Assembly (NCBI RefSeq): GCF_006345805.1
Contig: NC_043012.1
Location: forward strand, 56,668,001 to 56,732,000
Source of the DNA: Octopus sinensis
Taxonomy: Eukaryota
Length of the DNA stretch: 64,000 nucleotides
Direction: 5' to 3'
The translations under genes were made by a program, and so were the position numbers. The notes under the pieces were generated by a model. That model was not told where the DNA came from, did no database searches, and worked only from the letters and a program-made list of their open reading frames with translations. Position 1 is the first letter of the stretch; each line of letters begins with the position of its first letter. Shown piece by piece: positions 3,361 to 60,894 of this stretch.

Positions 3361-4179
3361 CAAGATAAGAAAATGGAGAAATACATCTAAATCAAATATC
3401 AATTACCAGATAATACTCAATCACATACTTTATTAAACCACCACATAAGAGACTGTAGGGTTAAACATAAAAAAGCAGAACAAATCAGTGTACATAAAGG
3501 AATAAAAAAGTGTACATAAAAGAGTGATGTTGTATAATAATCATATAATCATCTCGTTTAAGTCCGTTCTCCATGCTAGCATGGGTTGGACGGTTCGAAG
3601 GGGTTCTGGGAAGCCAGAAGGCTGCACCAGGCTCCAGTCTAATTTGGCAATGTTTCTACCGCTGGATGCCCTTCCTAACGCCAACCACTCCGTGAGTGTA
3701 GGGGTGCTTTTTACGTGCCACCTGCACAGGTGCCAGGCGGGGCTGGCAACGGCCACGGTCAGATTGGTGTATTTTATGTGCCAACGGCACGGAAGCCAGT
3801 CGAGCGGTTGCTGGCATCGGCCACGAGTCGGATAGTGCTTTTATTACGTACCACCAGACCAGGGATCCTGGCTGTTCAATTCGATTTCGATTCGCTTGCC
3901 CCAACATGTCTTCACAAGCAGAGGGGGTTGGCAAGGGTGCCTGTTCGTACGGTCGCATTGGAGTATTTTACGTGCCACGGCCACGAGTCGGATAGTGCTT
4001 TACGTACCACCAGACCAGGGATCCTGGCTGGTTCAATTCGATTTCGATTTCGCTTGCCCCAATAAGTAGAATATATATAAAAAAGAGAATTATACATATA
4101 AGTAAATATAAATATGGTATAGATTACATCTTACCAGTATATACATATATATACATACATTTGTGAGTGTGTCTGTGTG

Positions 4180-4221
<42 letters not shown>

Positions 4222-5038
4222 AGATAAGAAAATGGAGAAATACATCTAAATCAAATATCAATTACCAGATAATACTCAATCACATACTTTATTAAACCAC
4301 CACATAAGAGACTGTAGGGTTAAACATAAAAAAGCAGAACAAATCAGTGTACATAAAGGAATAAAAAAGTGTACATAAAAGAGTGATGTTGTATAATAAT
4401 CATATAATCATCTCGTTTAAGTCCGTTCTCCATGCTAGCATGGGTTGGACGGTTCGAAGGGGTTCTGGGAAGCCAGAAGGCTGCACCAGGCTCCAGTCTA
4501 ATTTGGCAATGTTTCTACCGCTGGATGCCCTTCCTAACGCCAACCACTCCGTGAGTGTAGGGGTGCTTTTTACGTGCCACCTGCACAGGTGCCAGGCGGG
4601 GCTGGCAACGGCCACGGTCAGATTGGTGTATTTTATGTGCCAACGGCACGGAAGCCAGTCGAGCGGTTGCTGGCATCGGCCACGAGTCGGATAGTGCTTT
4701 TATTACGTACCACCAGACCAGGGATCCTGGCTGTTCAATTCGATTTCGATTCGCTTGCCCCAACATGTCTTCACAAGCAGAGGGGGTTGGCAAGGGTGCC
4801 TGTTCGTACGGTCGCATTGGAGTATTTTACGTGCCACGGCCACGAGTCGGATAGTGCTTTACGTACCACCAGACCAGGGATCCTGGCTGGTTCAATTCGA
4901 TTTCGATTTCGCTTGCCCCAATAAGTAGAATATATATAAAAAAGAGAATTATACATATAAGTAAATATAAATATGGTATAGATTACATCTTACCAGTATA
5001 TACATATATATACATACATTTGTGAGTGTGTCTGTGTG

Positions 5039-6483: not shown

Positions 6484-6893
6484 TATTTCTTTACTGCCCA
6501 CAAGGGGCTACACACAGAGGAGACAAACAAGGACAGACAAATGGATTAAGTTGATTATATCGACCCCAATGAGTATCTGGTACTTATTTAATCGACCCTG
6601 AAAGGATGAAAGGCAAAGTCGACCTCGGTGGAATTTGAACTCAGAATGTAACGACAGATGAAATACCTATTTCTTTACTACCCACAAGGGGCTAAACACA
6701 GAGAGGACAAGCAAGGACAGATAAACGGATTAAGTCGATTATATCGACCCCAGTGCATAACTGGTACTTATTTAATCAACCCCGAAAGGATGAAAGGCAA
6801 AGTCGACCTCGGCGGAATTTGAACTCAGAACGTAGCGGCAGATGAAATACCGCTAAGCATTTCACCTGGCGTGCTAACGTTTCTGCCAGCTTG
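6484..6893 (-). mobile_element. SINE family B, head-to-tail dimer
   Basis: Two copies of the GACTTTGCCTTTCATCCTTTCGGGGTCGAT-type core; 13-bp TSD CTGCACAGTTTCT flanks the whole dimer. Confidence 0.88.
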
Positions 6894-10486: not shown

Positions 10487-10904
10487 TCTCTTATTATAAA
10501 AGGCAGATTTTATCTGCCTTCCTTTGGGAGTTATACAAATCTACAATATAGGATTTCTTCAATTACAATTTACCTGGCATTTTTAAGAGTACAATGCATC
10601 GCGTCATGCCAGGTCCAGTTTTTAAAATTTAAACTCCAATTAAGCAAAATTTACAGAAAACTCACATTCTGGTGTGTGTGTCAAATGCTTTTCTTAGTCT
10701 GGTTTACACCACACGCAAACACACACACAGTGGGCAACTAATAAAATGAAACTAATTCACTTACTGTAGTGAGTGATTCTTTCACTCTGCCTCCCACTTC
10801 CTATTTCCACACATACACACGCAAATATATAAATAAAATTGTAAGCTAACGTGCGTGTGTGTGAGTGTGTGTGTGTGTGTGCGCGTGTGTGTGTGTGTGT
10901 GACG

Positions 10905-10940
<36 letters not shown>

Positions 10941-10985
10941 GCGTAAGTGTGTGACAGGAAAGTTTTTTTAGACGAATATAACACC
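10487..10985 (+). mobile_element. Helitron-like 5' fragment
   Basis: A|TCTCTTATTATAAAAGGCAG start resembles the 9721 element; 3' CTAG end not found. Confidence 0.5.
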
Positions 10986-11386
10986 TATATCCAAGTAGCA
11001 GAAAGATAAGACAGTAAGGTGTGATTTGGGGGAAATTTTGCTGCTATTTCTACCAGGTCTAGCTACCATGTAGAGGTCCCCCTCAATTCTTTTATTCTTC
11101 TGCTTTTTCCAGCCATTGCTCTGTGGCCATGCTGGGGCAATGCCTTGAAGAATTGTAGTTTAATGAATCAACTCCAGTTTTATTTTTGTAAGCATAGTAC
11201 TTATTCTATCTGTTTCCTTTGTCAAACCACTAGGTGACAGGGATGTAAACAAACCAACATTCGTTGTCAAGCAGTGGTGGAGGACAATCACAAGCACAGA
11301 CACGCACACACACACACACATACATGCATACACATATACACACATACATACATACATACATATATATATATGTGTGTATATATATA

Positions 11387-11710
11387 TTGCAGCATGGAAG
11401 GTGTTTGTAAGCCATTTAAGAAACACACAAAAACCGTTACATTCACTTCAACATTTAAATTTAATTTGCCAAAATATTTTCGTCGCTTTGAGACCGCGAC
11501 CTGTTCACTGACAAAAATATTGTGCTAACAGGTCGCGGTCTCAAAGCGACGAAAATATTTTGACAAATTTAATTTAAATGTTGAAGTAAATCTAATGGTT
11601 TTTGTGTGTTTCTTAAATGGCTTATAAACACCTTCAATGCTGCAACTGTTTTCGTTCCAGCACACGATCTCAGATCAAGTCACTTGCTATGCAAGTACAT
11701 CTCTGTAACT
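11387..11710. mobile_element. Inverted Penelope-like terminal-repeat pair (119-bp arms, 21-bp spacer, extra tail on the right arm)
   Basis: Arms 11387-11505 and 11527-11645 are reverse complements with a few mismatches; contains a hammerhead motif; inserted in (TA)n. Confidence 0.75.
11465..11515 (-). ncRNA. Minimal type I hammerhead ribozyme candidate, G3-C8 variant
   Basis: UUUGUCA GUGAACAG GUCGC GGUCUCAAA GCGAC GAA AAUAUU U UGGCAAA: 7-bp stem I, 5-bp stem II, palindromic stem III. Confidence 0.7.
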
Positions 11711-11805
11711 ATATATATATTTATATATATATATATGTATATTGGTAAAAACAGTAAGATAACAAAAGAAAGAAAGAGACCTCAATATTATGTAAATAGA
11801 GGAAA

Positions 11806-12199
11806 TCTTTATATATAAAAGTGAGGTTGTGTGTCTGTCTCCTACGATTTAGATTCCTAACTACTCCCACATTTTGCGGTGCAGTTTTAACCAAAACCGG
11901 GTATCTTATAGTCGTGATTCATATCGAGACCGTCTGGGTATTAGCGCGCGTCTACGATGAGTCTACGATTTAAAAAAAATTTAACATCAATTTTTCCCAT
12001 TTTTAATCCATTTTTGACATATATAAGGGAAGTAACTCTCTAAAATTTATTATTAAATCTCAGAACGTAAAAAGCTACAGTAACACCCCTCCCCCTTTGT
12101 GGTTAGCCATATTGAGATGGCTATTATACTTTACATCTCTAAAAATGCTTATATAATTATTTCCCTTACAAACCCGAGCAACGCCGGGCGATACTGCTA

Positions 12200-12200
<1 letters not shown>
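11806..12200 (+). mobile_element. Non-autonomous Helitron
   Basis: A|TCTTTATATATAAAAG start; CCCGAGCAACGCCGGG hairpin then CTAG|T. Confidence 0.85.
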
Positions 12201-39295: not shown

Positions 39296-39806
39296 TCAAA
39301 TCAAATCAAATCAAAACAAATCAAAATAGATGAACATCAATGGAATTTGTATCTTTGTGGTACCAGTGCCGGTGGCACACAAGAAAACCATCCGAACGTG
39401 GCCGTAGCCAGTACCGCATCGTCTGGCCTCCGTGCTGTGGGCACGTAACAAACACCATCCGATCGTGGCCGTTTGCCAGCCTCATCTGGCACCTGTGTCG
39501 GTGGCACATAAAAACACCATCCGAGCGTGGCCGTCTGCCAGCCTCGTCTGGCACCTGTGTCGGTGGCACATAAAAAACACCATCCGAGCGTGGCCGTTCG
39601 CCAGCCTCGTCTGGCACCTGTGTCGGTGGCACATAAAATCATCCACTACACTCTCGGAGTGGTTGGCATTAGGAAGGGCATCCAGCTGTAGAAACACTGC
39701 CAGATCTGACTGGCCTGGTGCAGCCTTCGGGCTCCCCAGACCCCAGTTGAACTGTCCAACCCATGCTGGAAAGCGGACGTTAAATGATGATGATGATGAT
39801 GATGAT
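39296..39806 (+). mobile_element. RTE 3'UTR copy with four ~62-bp internal tandem units
   Basis: ACCATCCGA..GTGGCCGT units start at 39387, 39454, 39516 and 39579; (TGA)n tail. Confidence 0.85.
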
Positions 39807-48780: not shown

Positions 48781-48815
48781 GTTTAACGTTTCAAGCAGAG
48801 CTCTTTGTCAGAAAC
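48781..48815 (-). ncRNA. Minimal hammerhead motif (CpG-decayed) in a pLTR-like repeat (48690-48895)
   Basis: GUUU CUGACAAA GAGC UCU GCUU GAAACGU U AAAC. Confidence 0.62.
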
Positions 48816-57949: not shown

Positions 57950-60159
57950 AATAGGTATAAAAATTTTATATAAAAAGGGACAAGAATGTGAAATACGCAA
58001 AGAGACGCACAAAAAACGGATGGGTCATTCAAAGCCTTTAATCTTCAGTCAGGAACCGGATCATCATAGCAAATTTCGGCTGATTAATCCTGAGCACACA
58101 CACACACACCATTGATTATCCATGTCAACTAGGGAGCCTCTACACCATGGTTGCTTGATCTTCCAGAAGCAACAGTCTAGTCTTCCTCAAATCACATTCC
58201 TAATATCTTTTTTTTTTTTTGAAGGAAAAAAAAATGGCTAATGTAGGTTTAAACATACAAAGAGATGTGGTAATCCTATCTGGACTGCATTCAATCATAA
58301 GCCTGTTCAGCCAGAGCTAACCCAGGGTTAAACAACAACAACAACATCAGCAGCAGCAGCTTCCTATACAGAAATGTCTAGACATCTGATACTCTGACTT
58401 GTATAGTATAGTGTAGGTTAGTCCTCACTGAATAGACCTGTAATGAAAGGCACTCCAGCAATGACAATCCCATCTTTATATATTTTACAAACATAGGGCA
58501 ATGTAGTCCAAGATAAATTATGCATAATTTGTTTCTTTAAGACTATGTATACATTGTTCTTGTAGTAGTTTGAGAGACCCCTTAAAAACAAATCTCTATT
58601 CTGAATGAGTTTACTTTCTTAATAAAAATAAAGTGAAATAAAACAATATATGTTAAGAAAGTTATCAGAATACAACTGGGAAATCAAAAATAACAGTCTA
58701 AATAAAAATCTAGCTTTTATTTTGATTTCCGCTTTTCTTTTCCTTCTTTAGCTGCTTTTACTGTTGATCAATCTTTACTAAAAGGAAATGATAGATTCCA
58801 AAGATAAAGATTTCAATGTTTACGGCTAGTTAAGGCCATTTGATTTTATCAACTGATGTGTTAACAATGTCCAAATCGGTGAAATATGAGAGTTAGCAGA
58901 TGAAACGTGTTGCTAGACTTAATCCTAGTTTAACACCACTATCTCAATGAACCTTGGTTGATTTAAGTGCAGTTACACTATGCTGTAAGTATTTCATTCA
59001 TGTCTCTGGTTGAGAAAATTTAAGATCTTCCTCTCTTTCTTACACCAGTCTCGGAAATCCTGCAAAAAGCCATCGGTGTTGCTGTTCCTTTTCCAAGCCA
59101 CACACAACAATAACAACAATATTAGAGAGCTTCACAGTAGTTACATTCAAGACAGCCCTTTATGTCTTCCAACGAGTGATAGTCTTGACATTAAGAGTCA
59201 AATCAATTGACTGTACACTCCTTCCTTATACATGTGGGCCTCTCGCCAATGTAAGAAATCAACACAGCTGTCAGATAAAACAAATGTGGGTATTGACAGT
59301 GATTACAAAAATAACTCTGATGAACTATATTTTCCAGATTTCTAATATTTCGTGTCCTAGCGAGAGTATAGCATGATGCTTTGAGAGCGCTTAACTGTTT
59401 TAATAACTCAGTCTTGCCATCGCCCCAGAGCCATTTCAAGGTATGAGCACACTGAACACTTGCAAGAGGCACAAGGGGTCTAGGGATCCAATGGAAATCT
59501 ATGTAGGTTGTAATTGTGTTTAAAGGGGGTCTCAGGAAATTGTATTGATCTGGACCCTACAGTGTTGTTGAGCTGTCTTAAACAATTTTAAAGGGAAATA
59601 TTGATATTCTGTTATGGTATGTAATTGAGGAAGTGTATATGCTTTTTAACTAATTTTTATTGCCATTGTTTACATTTTTGTTCAATATATACTCCAAAAT
59701 AATTTTTTAAAAAGCCATAAAACTTTACACACACACACAAACATATATCATCATCACTGTTTAATGTCCGCCTTCCATGTTGGCATGAGTTGAACGGTTT
59801 GACGGGAGCTGACTAGGCAGAAGCCTGCACCAGACTTCTGTGTCTGTTTTGGCATGGCTTTCATACACATGTGTATGTGTAAACTGCATAGTAAATATTC
59901 AAATAGGGCAAATCTATTTAATTATTTCTCTGCAGACTGAAAAAAATTGTGAACAGCTTTAATCAATTGTCGAGCATTATTGCATTCTCATCAGTGTTGT
60001 CGGCATCACTTTGACCGATCCCAAAGAAACAAGCAACCAATCTGTTTATATACACAACAAATCCAATAGCTACAGAGAACTAGAGTTATATATATCATCT
60101 TGATAGGACAATGAGTGGCAGGGTTGAATGATCAGTCAGTGGTGAGCCTTTAAAAGAAT

Positions 60160-60894
60160 TTGGATACCCAGTGTAAGATATGGATGCACAAGAGGTGCAG
60201 CAACATCAAAAGAAAATTAACCGAGAAGATCGCTTTTGTGTGCTGCAGATGCACAGGGGAAATAGACACCGCAGATACTCAGAAAACAGATTCCATCACA
60301 CTCCAGGGGGAGAAACTAGAAGTAGTTGTTAGTTTCTGCTACCTAGGTGACCAAGTTAGTAGTGGAGGTGGATGCTCAGAGAGTGTCACTACTAGAATAC
60401 GAATATTCTGGGCAAAGTTTAGAAAGCTTCTACCCCTACTGGTAACAAAGGGTCTCTCACTCAGAGTGAAAGGTAGATTATACGACGCATGTGTGCGAAA
60501 TACCATGCTTCACGGTAGTGAAACATGGGCTGTGACTGCAAAGGACATATGTAGGCTTGAAAGAAATGAAGCTAGCATGCTTCACTGGATGTGCAATGTC
60601 AATGTGCACACACGACAGAGTGTAAGCGCCCTGAGAGAAATGCTGGACATAAGAAGTATTGGATGTGGTGTGCAAGAGAGACGTCTGCGCTGGTATGGTC
60701 ATGTACTACGGATGGATGAGGAGAGATGTGTGAAGAAGTGCCACTCCCAAACAGTTGAAGGAATCCGGGGTAGATGTAGACCCAGGAAGACATGGGATGA
60801 GGTGGTCAAGCATGACCATCGAATGTTGGGCCTCACAGAGGCAATGACGAAAGACCGAGATCTCTGGAGATATGCTGTGACTGCAAAGACCTGA
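60160..60894 (+). pseudogene. RTE-clade LINE ORF C-terminal fragment (244 aa open, 5'-truncated)
   Basis: Cys/His cluster CKIWMHKRC...CCRC, thumb motif FCYLG, HGSETW, RLRWYGH, GRCRPRKTW, DRDLWR. Confidence 0.9.

What the first reader, a model, noticed from the sequence alone, without database searches (positions are those of the whole stretch)
11465..11515. Complete minimal hammerhead fold with a swapped G3-C8 core pair
Seen: the minus strand reads UUUGUCA-GUGAACAG-GUCGC(GGUCUCAAA)GCGAC-GAA-AAUAUU-U-UGGCAAA. That gives a 7-bp stem I (one G-U; the mirror arm has the perfect UGACAAA), a 5-bp stem II, GAAA and a self-complementary stem III. Established: Penelope-like elements carry minimal type I hammerheads with palindromic stem III, thought to work as dimers, and core positions 3 and 8 form a Watson-Crick pair (normally C3-G8). 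Inference: GUGAACA is CUGANGA with that pair compensatorily swapped. This rare variant would be missed by CUGAUGA-based searches. The predicted cleavage triplet UUU is suboptimal.
Basis: partly seen in the sequence, partly recalled or inferred. Interest (0 to 1): 0.8.

Follow-up and report, generated by a model that had tools for sequence, protein, structure and literature searches.

The report
Swapped-core hammerhead in octopus retroelement
Thousands of copies of an octopus jumping element carry a hammerhead-ribozyme fold whose core C-G pair is swapped to G-C while related elements keep C-G or U-A, so it is likely a real, slow self-cutting RNA variant that standard searches miss, although cutting is untested and this particular copy is probably an inactive passenger.

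Summary
The motif is real (11465-11515, minus strand). It is the pseudo-LTR hammerhead of an endonuclease-positive Penelope-like element (PLE) with a Neptune/Nematis-type linker. A full-length copy (L153) has one motif before and one after an RT + GIY-YIG ORF.

G3-C8 is the family state: 5,800 genomic matches, against 599 single and 17 double changes, none of them C3-G8. Six related PLE families carry the same fold with different stems and C3-G8 (3) or U3-A8 (3). The nearest sister family is C3-G8, so the swap is compensatory and derived. The extra G before stem II and U17 are ordinary for PLE hammerheads. Rfam misses the motif.

Limits: cleavage is untested. 92 of 100 unselected copies run across the predicted cut site; most begin 42-62 nt upstream, often after an extra G (likely a cap), so insertions come from uncut RNA. 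The window copy is a truncated inverted pair, predicted to be buried in a 119-bp hairpin and spread by a Helitron-like unit (535 junction matches).

I found no natural G3-C8 hammerhead in the papers I could search; three key papers were unavailable. This scan already noted G3-C8 in protist PLEs and phages.

The parts
11465..11515 (-). Minimal type I hammerhead fold with G3-C8 core pair, extra G after A9, 5-bp stem II, palindromic stem III, U17; predicted cut between 11472 and 11471
11502..11508 (-). 5' core strand G3-U4-G5-A6-A7-C8-A9 (G3 = 11508, C8 = 11503)
11387..11526 (-). Short PLE copy A: starts just upstream of stem I, holds the whole hammerhead, ends without the tail
   Evidence: 89% identical to L153
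11527..11708 (+). Short inverted PLE copy B (mirror arm): starts inside the core at A6, so no ribozyme; carries the about 60-nt tail, which is the start of the ORF
   Evidence: tail matches L153 ORF start
10487..12200 (+). Non-autonomous Helitron-like unit (5' TC after A, 3' hairpin 12173-12188, CTAG end before T) that carries the inverted pair as cargo
   Evidence: terminal features of Helitrons are recalled knowledge
11806..12200 (+). About 395-bp mini unit with its own TC start that supplies the 3' end; also seen alone in L046

Best explanation
The motif is the pseudo-LTR hammerhead of a Penelope-like retroelement family, with its core pair swapped to G3-C8, and it is likely a slow ribozyme that cuts only as a dimer or with help from the element's protein. 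Shown: it sits 57 nt before the ATG of an RT + GIY-YIG ORF and again about 1 kb after the stop codon; G3-C8 is the family state; relatives keep the fold with other Watson-Crick pairs at 3-8. Inferred: the swap arose from C3-G8 in the lineage to this family and was kept because the pair, not its identity, is selected. Inferred: transcription starts about 58 nt upstream of the cut site, so the fold lies in the 5' UTR of a capped mRNA. Inferred: reverse transcription starts internally at two sites just inside the ORF and runs back to the cap, giving thousands of 150-210-bp solo copies from uncut RNA. Predicted: cutting, when it happens, needs two copies to pair through the palindromic stem III and exchange stem I, and would trim tandem transcripts or remove the cap. 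The window copy is one such short copy in a head-to-head pair, later multiplied passively by a Helitron-like unit, and is predicted to be inactive.
For: Parent element: L110, L152 and L153 ORFs with YVDD, a DKSG motif, CX3CxxC linker and GIY-YIG (Pfam PF01541 E 3.6e-05 on L113); two same-strand motifs at L153 1565 and 5926. Counts: G3-C8 5,800; only 8 changed 395; only 3 changed 204; both changed 17 with 13.9 expected, 0 C3-G8, 0 U3-A8. 30 of 30 copies picked on an upstream motif have G3-C8. Covariation: 7 of 7 families with a detectable fold have a Watson-Crick 3-8 pair in three identities, permutation P 0.007 without correction for relatedness; 0 hits in 43,242 reversed control bases. The sister family is C3-G8 with support 100/99, and its stem II changes a G-C pair to A-U. 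In runs labelled organisms B, C and D, differences at 5% or more within the motif fall only in loop II plus one A-to-G that leaves a U-G pair. Stems I and II form with P about 1 in the parent context. An engineered C3G/G8C double mutant of a PLE hammerhead partly restores cleavage, and that ribozyme needs the element's protein (PMC11167929).
Against: No cleavage data. 92 of 100 copies picked on a downstream motif cross the cut site and only 1 starts at it, at an ambiguous inversion junction. Relatives show other core departures (C9 in the sister family and L211, U15.1-A16.1 in L209, G5 lost in L214), which may mean relaxed catalysis in the clade. The hammerhead dimer is about 2 kcal/mol less stable than two monomers in a nearest-neighbour model. 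Conservation among young copies of one family is inheritance, not selection. Published minimal PLE hammerheads cleave poorly even with C3-G8 (PMC4209133).
Confidence: 0.6

Rival explanations
1. The fold is kept for a non-catalytic job, such as a binding or folding signal for the PLE protein near the reverse-transcription start sites, and the G3-C8 form no longer cuts at a useful rate.
For: Inserted copies come from uncut RNA. In the Anolis PLE, hammerhead mutants did not affect insertion in vitro and no RNA reads ended at the cut site (PMC11167929). Core departures occur in 4 of 6 relatives.
Against: The 3-8 pair is a tertiary contact of the active fold (established knowledge); keeping it Watson-Crick in 7 of 7 families fits selection on the catalytic conformation. 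U4, A6, G12, A13, A14 are present in all 7 (partly required by the descriptor) and G5 in 6 of 7.
Confidence: 0.3
2. The hammerhead is decaying: G3 and C8 are two unselected changes fixed in a master copy and amplified by transposition, and their complementarity is luck.
For: One master lineage explains all 5,800 matches. Two older loci carry G3-G8 (L172, L182), and transposition may not need the ribozyme.
Against: All other core bases and both stems are intact, while loop II differs among subfamilies. Two transversions that happen to be complementary, with no other damage, are unlikely without selection. Single changes at 8 are spread over T, G and A, as expected for decay after insertion.
Confidence: 0.08
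3. Chance resemblance to a hammerhead in an AT-rich inverted repeat.
For: Folding z-score is only -2.14; 4 of 200 shuffled windows give a descriptor hit; no Rfam hammerhead match.
Against: It occupies the same position in the element as clear C3-G8 and U3-A8 hammerheads in six relatives, the position where PLE hammerheads are known.
Confidence: 0.02

Closest known systems
Minimal type I hammerheads of metazoan Penelope-like elements (Cervera and de la Pena 2014, PMC4209133)
   Same: Location in the pLTR, unpaired base between 9 and 10.1, G10.1-C11.1, palindromic stem III, H17 (often U), many solo copies and opposite-strand pairs.
   Different: G3-C8. That paper reports C3-G8 and U3-A8 only; in the 44 alignment rows I saw (supplement part 2 of 3) 41 are C3-G8, 2 U3-A8, 1 U3-G8, none G3.
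Hammerhead of the Anolis Poseidon element PAc (Frangieh et al. 2024, PMC11167929)
   Same: Hammerhead at the pLTR-ORF junction, two 3' ends separated by a tail made of ORF-start sequence, uncut RNA as the main template.
   Different: PAc is naturally C3-G8 and G3-C8 was only an engineered rescue mutant; PAc is Poseidon clade, whereas this element has the zinc-finger-like linker; here the fold lies wholly upstream of the ATG.
Natural core variants of hammerheads (Perreault et al. 2011, PMC3088659)
   Same: Natural covariation at positions 3 and 8.
   Different: The passages I saw report U3-A8 only.
EN+ PLEs of the Neptune/Nematis type (Craig et al. 2021, PMC8557442)
   Same: RT with C-terminal GIY-YIG, CX2-5CxxC linker, tandem and inverted truncated copies, optional tail, (TA)n targets.
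   Different: The DKG motif reads DKS, the tail is about 60 nt rather than 30-40, and the clade was not placed against reference sequences.

Membership tests
Minimal type I PLE hammerhead | Literal CUGANGA box (C3, G8) | tested here: not met
   G3 and C8 in the window and in 5,800 genomic matches; hence filed as a variant
Minimal type I PLE hammerhead | Watson-Crick pair between positions 3 and 8 | tested here: met
   G3-C8; 7 of 7 families Watson-Crick
Minimal type I PLE hammerhead | U4, G5, A6, A9, G12, A13, A14, A15.1-U16.1, H17 | tested here: met
   U17 in 79 of 80 copies scored
Minimal type I PLE hammerhead | Unpaired base between 9 and 10.1, and G10.1-C11.1 | tested here: met
   trait described in PMC4209133
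Minimal type I PLE hammerhead | Stems I and II paired, with covariation | tested here: met
   P about 1 in parent context; different paired sequences in six relatives, although stem I is only 2-3 bp in two of them
Minimal type I PLE hammerhead | Palindromic stem III allowing dimers, and tandem copies in one element | tested here: met
   AAUAUU; two same-strand motifs 4,361 nt apart in L153
Minimal type I PLE hammerhead | Site-specific self-cleavage | not testable with these tools
   only assembled contigs were available, no read ends
Rfam hammerhead families | Match to a covariance model | tested here: not met
   no hammerhead family at E up to 1 over the window or E up to 10 on the motif; not checked whether Rfam detects C3-G8 minimal motifs either
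EN+ Penelope-like element | Single ORF with RT and C-terminal GIY-YIG | tested here: met
   Pfam gave no RT hit, so RT rests on motifs read directly (YVDD) and on a UniRef 'reverse transcriptase domain' label of the best homolog
EN+ Penelope-like element | pLTRs, inverted truncated partners, optional tail | tested here: met
   tail in 52 of 100 copies
Neptune/Nematis-type PLE | CX2-5CxxC linker before the GIY-YIG domain | tested here: met
   CX3CxxC in L152; definition from PMC8557442
Neptune versus Nematis clade | Phylogenetic placement with reference elements | not tested
   no named reference sequences were in hand; the tree holds only the nine fetched relatives
Non-autonomous Helitron (carrier unit) | 5' TC, 3' hairpin and CTAG, insertion between A and T | tested here: met
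   same 3' end in 26 of 30 loci and same 5' end in 24 of 30, window copy included, at unrelated flanks; criteria recalled
Non-autonomous Helitron (carrier unit) | Autonomous Rep-helicase partner with matching ends | not tested
   no search made

The most novel reading that the evidence does not exclude
An active natural G3-C8 hammerhead that was tuned down on purpose. It lies between the cap and the start codon of the element's own mRNA, stays uncut while the RNA is translated and copied, and cuts off the cap only when the element's protein binds next to it or a second copy pairs with it. That would be a protein-triggered feedback switch, and it would give PLE hammerheads a function and reveal a large class of genomic ribozymes invisible to CUGANGA searches.
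Probability: 0.2. Interest if true: 0.75.

Novelty: new variant of a known kind. Interest (0 to 1): 0.5.

Why it matters
It completes the natural covariation of the hammerhead 3-8 core pair within one retroelement clade (C-G, U-A, G-C) and shows that descriptor and Rfam searches can miss a family with more than 5,000 copies in one animal genome. The copy ends also give a genomic record on the open question of what PLE hammerheads do: insertions come from uncut and probably capped RNA, which matches the in vitro result for the Anolis element. A natural wild type, a natural C3-G8 sister family and near-intact ORFs make the test direct. It is not a new ribozyme class, and the window copy itself is probably inert.

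Tried and rejected
Rfam scans gave no hammerhead hit; the microRNA hits are simple repeats.

RNA evidence: no RNA holder listed. The runs laid were assembled contigs and showed no start or end pile-ups, so they say nothing on expression or cleavage.

A search for a C3-G8 or U3-A8 subfamily inside this family found none (0 of 17 double changes). A loose search for other G3-C8 families showed none with a clear stem II among the first 100 of 4,974 matches; the reversed control gave 2,212, and families whose stem II starts with GU were excluded by design.

The idea that copies begin at the cut site was rejected (1 of 100). The mirror arm as dimer partner was rejected (opposite strand, core truncated).

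A first control for the extra G (copies starting 3 nt further in) also showed G excess (18 of 26). The split by flank type traced this to fold-back junctions (28 of 42 with an inverted partner, 1 of 4 clean), so the cap reading rests on 27 of 30 overall but only 5 of 6 clean-flank copies.

A MAFFT alignment of the eight motifs misaligned L212 and L214 and was not used for pair counts. Pfam found no RT domain. Of 11 metagenome relatives, 8 were scanned: 5 gave a fold, 3 did not (L213, L215, L217); L216, L218 and L219 are ORF fragments and were left out.

Literature: searches for a natural G3-C8 hammerhead (supplement searches) found none. Lunse et al. 2017, Przybilski and Hammann 2007 and Hammann et al. 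2012 were not held and could contain one.

Full report
Observation. It folds into stems I and II by itself (z -2.14). A descriptor with a free Watson-Crick 3-8 pair gives 1 hit in the window and 4 in 200 shuffles. Rfam has no hammerhead match.

Local anatomy. The motif is in one arm of a 119-nt inverted repeat (11387-11505 / 11527-11645, 94% complementary). The arms are two head-to-head short copies of one element, 88-89% identical to locus L153. The mirror copy starts at A6 and is not a ribozyme. With both arms present the predicted fold is one long hairpin and the probability of stems I and II drops to 0. The pair lies inside a 1.7-kb unit (10487-12200) shared by the 30 best loci (most pieces 92-98% identical). 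The unit starts with TC, ends in a hairpin plus CTAG before T, and sits at unrelated flanks (3' end in 26 of 30 loci, 5' end in 24 of 30). These are Helitron ends (recalled criteria). The junction between the arms has 535 exact matches. So this copy was multiplied as cargo and is predicted to be inert.

Parent element. Following a longer 5' extension led to ORFs with YVDD, DKSG, a CX3CxxC linker and a GIY-YIG domain (PF01541 E 3.6e-05). L153 is a full-length pLTR-ORF-pLTR copy with one frameshift: motifs at 1565 and 5926, ATG at 1657, 57 nt after the predicted cut. Inverted partners, (TA)n flanks and an optional tail (52 of 100 copies) fit EN+ PLEs with the Neptune/Nematis linker (PMC8557442, section 11, passages and a supplement term search). 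The best named homolog is labelled Octopus vulgaris (57%) and matches this genome at up to 99%, so the host is an octopus (inference).

Is G3-C8 the family state? Yes. A 20-letter pattern gives 5,800 matches with G3-C8, 395 with only position 8 changed, 204 with only position 3 changed, and 17 with both changed (one search fixed the extra base as G, the other three allowed A or G). About 14 doubles are expected from independent decay; none is C3-G8 or U3-A8, and 4 are A3-U8. Unbiased samples agree: 30 of 30 copies picked on an upstream motif and 70 of 75 scorable copies picked on a downstream motif. In contigs of runs labelled organisms B, C and D no other letter reached 5% at positions 3 or 8; variation within the motif was in loop II plus one change to a U-G pair. 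This shows inheritance, not selection.

Is the swap compensatory? A sister family in the same genome (57% protein identity; loci L189-L208) and five metagenome relatives (32-47% identity) carry a hammerhead at the matching place: C3-G8 in the sister family, L209 and L210; U3-A8 in L211, L212 and L214 (first read by eye, then scripted with a descriptor relaxed to fit). All 7 families are Watson-Crick at 3-8 (permutation P 0.007, no correction for relatedness). Stems differ in sequence yet pair, all have the extra base, and the reversed control gave 0 hits in 43,242 bases. Three scanned relatives gave no fold and three fragments were not scanned. The protein tree joins this family to the C3-G8 sister (100/99) and then to C3-G8 L210 (82/88), so G3-C8 is most simply derived from C3-G8. 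Against a strong catalytic constraint: C9 in the sister family and L211, U15.1-A16.1 in L209, G5 lost in L214, and only 2-3 bp of stem I in the sister family and L212.

Does it cut? Not testable here. No RNA holder was listed and only contigs could be laid. The genome gives indirect evidence. Of the first 100 of 7,691 copies picked on a motif 55-78 nt downstream of the cut site, 92 cross the site, 1 starts at it and 7 start after it. 67 start 42-62 nt upstream and only 6 clearly extend further (the 16 most upstream starts are mostly microsatellite artefacts, and the group at -43 partly reflects subfamily differences from the reference). Copies that start exactly at the upstream edge are preceded by G in 27 of 30 cases where about 36% is expected, but only 6 have clean flanks (5 of 6, P 0.025). 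An extra G at full-length L1 junctions is read as a trace of the cap (PMC11702581, one passage). I infer a capped start about 58 nt before the cut site, internal initiation of reverse transcription at two sites in the ORF start, and copying of uncut RNA. A 3' splice site at the same place is an alternative: the sequence also resembles a branch point, pyrimidine tract and AG, and the Drosophila Penelope intron ends at helix I (PMC4209133). Absence of copies starting at the cut does not exclude cleavage, because cut RNA may simply not be copied.

Mechanism. Most likely a slow, assisted ribozyme. In the parent context stems I and II form with P about 1, and the two-copy hammerhead is within about 2 kcal/mol of two monomers, on the unfavourable side. 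In the Anolis PLE the engineered C3G/G8C double mutant partly restores cleavage, cleavage needs the element's protein, and insertion does not need cleavage (PMC11167929, parts 1-2 of 4). Partial rescue is also stated in PMC8495972 (one passage).

What is known. PMC4209133 (parts 1-2 of 4, supplement part 2 of 3 and a term search) and PMC3088659 (passages) report natural U3-A8 only. I also saw passages or sections of PMC6765202, PMC6155905, PMC3884650, PMC10085705, PMC13282606 (no hammerhead mention), part 1 of 2 of PMC2920678, and part 1 of 5 of bioRxiv 10.64898/2026.07.22.740005; none of what I saw describes a natural G3-C8. Seven searches found none. Lunse et al. 2017, Przybilski and Hammann 2007 and Hammann et al. 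2012 were not held, and the hammerhead alignment file of PMC8557442 was not among the supplements seen; any of them could hold a prior report. Earlier notes of this scan describe G3-C8 motifs in protist PLEs and in phages (not checked by me); none matched this sequence or genome.

Verdict. Real, correctly interpreted, a new variant of a known kind. The strongest points are the copy number, the natural C3-G8 sister and the three-way covariation. The weakest are the lack of any cleavage evidence and the small, related set of families. Interest 0.5.

Noticed in passing
window 10487-12200 (+): Helitron-like composite that captured a PLE inverted pair and SINE-like pieces; 535 junction matches, some in tandem; its last 395 bp also occur alone.
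   Followed up: partly
L153:1543-1600 and copies genome-wide: Most short copies start 42-62 nt upstream of the predicted cut, with a sharp edge and an extra G; the edge resembles both an initiator and a 3' splice site. It may explain why solo PLE hammerheads are so abundant.
   Followed up: partly
L189:6364-6415 (sister family, L189-L208): C3-G8 hammerhead with C instead of A at position 9 in all 11 loci where one search found it, and an imperfect stem III palindrome; L211 also has C9. The family has open frames of over 1,000 codons.
   Followed up: partly
window 48781-48815 (-): Second minimal hammerhead-like motif from another repeat; this copy is C3/A8, while a related copy in L038/L039 is C3-G8.
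   Followed up: no
G000 contig C1: About 23 of the first 100 rows belong to one canonical C3-G8 minimal hammerhead family with a 5-bp stem II; smaller ones are also present.
   Followed up: no
L172:6647 (-), L182:2381 (+): Two older loci with G3-G8 and A as the extra base; could be decay in a duplicated copy or an intermediate state. This exact form is rare genome-wide (2 of the first 100 rows).
   Followed up: partly
L214:282-335: U3-A8 hammerhead-like motif that has lost G5, upstream of a PLE ORF in a metagenome contig.
   Followed up: no
L116:3257-7305 and L109:5931-6395: Gag-pol-like frames of an LTR retrotransposon inserted in a PLE copy, and a Mariner-like transposase fragment (read from translations, not searched).
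   Followed up: no
window 3679-4924, 6484-6851, 39358-39638, 60154-60894: An 859-bp tandem duplication, a 184-bp two-copy repeat, a 63-bp tandem array, and a 246-codon open frame with no Pfam hit.
   Followed up: no
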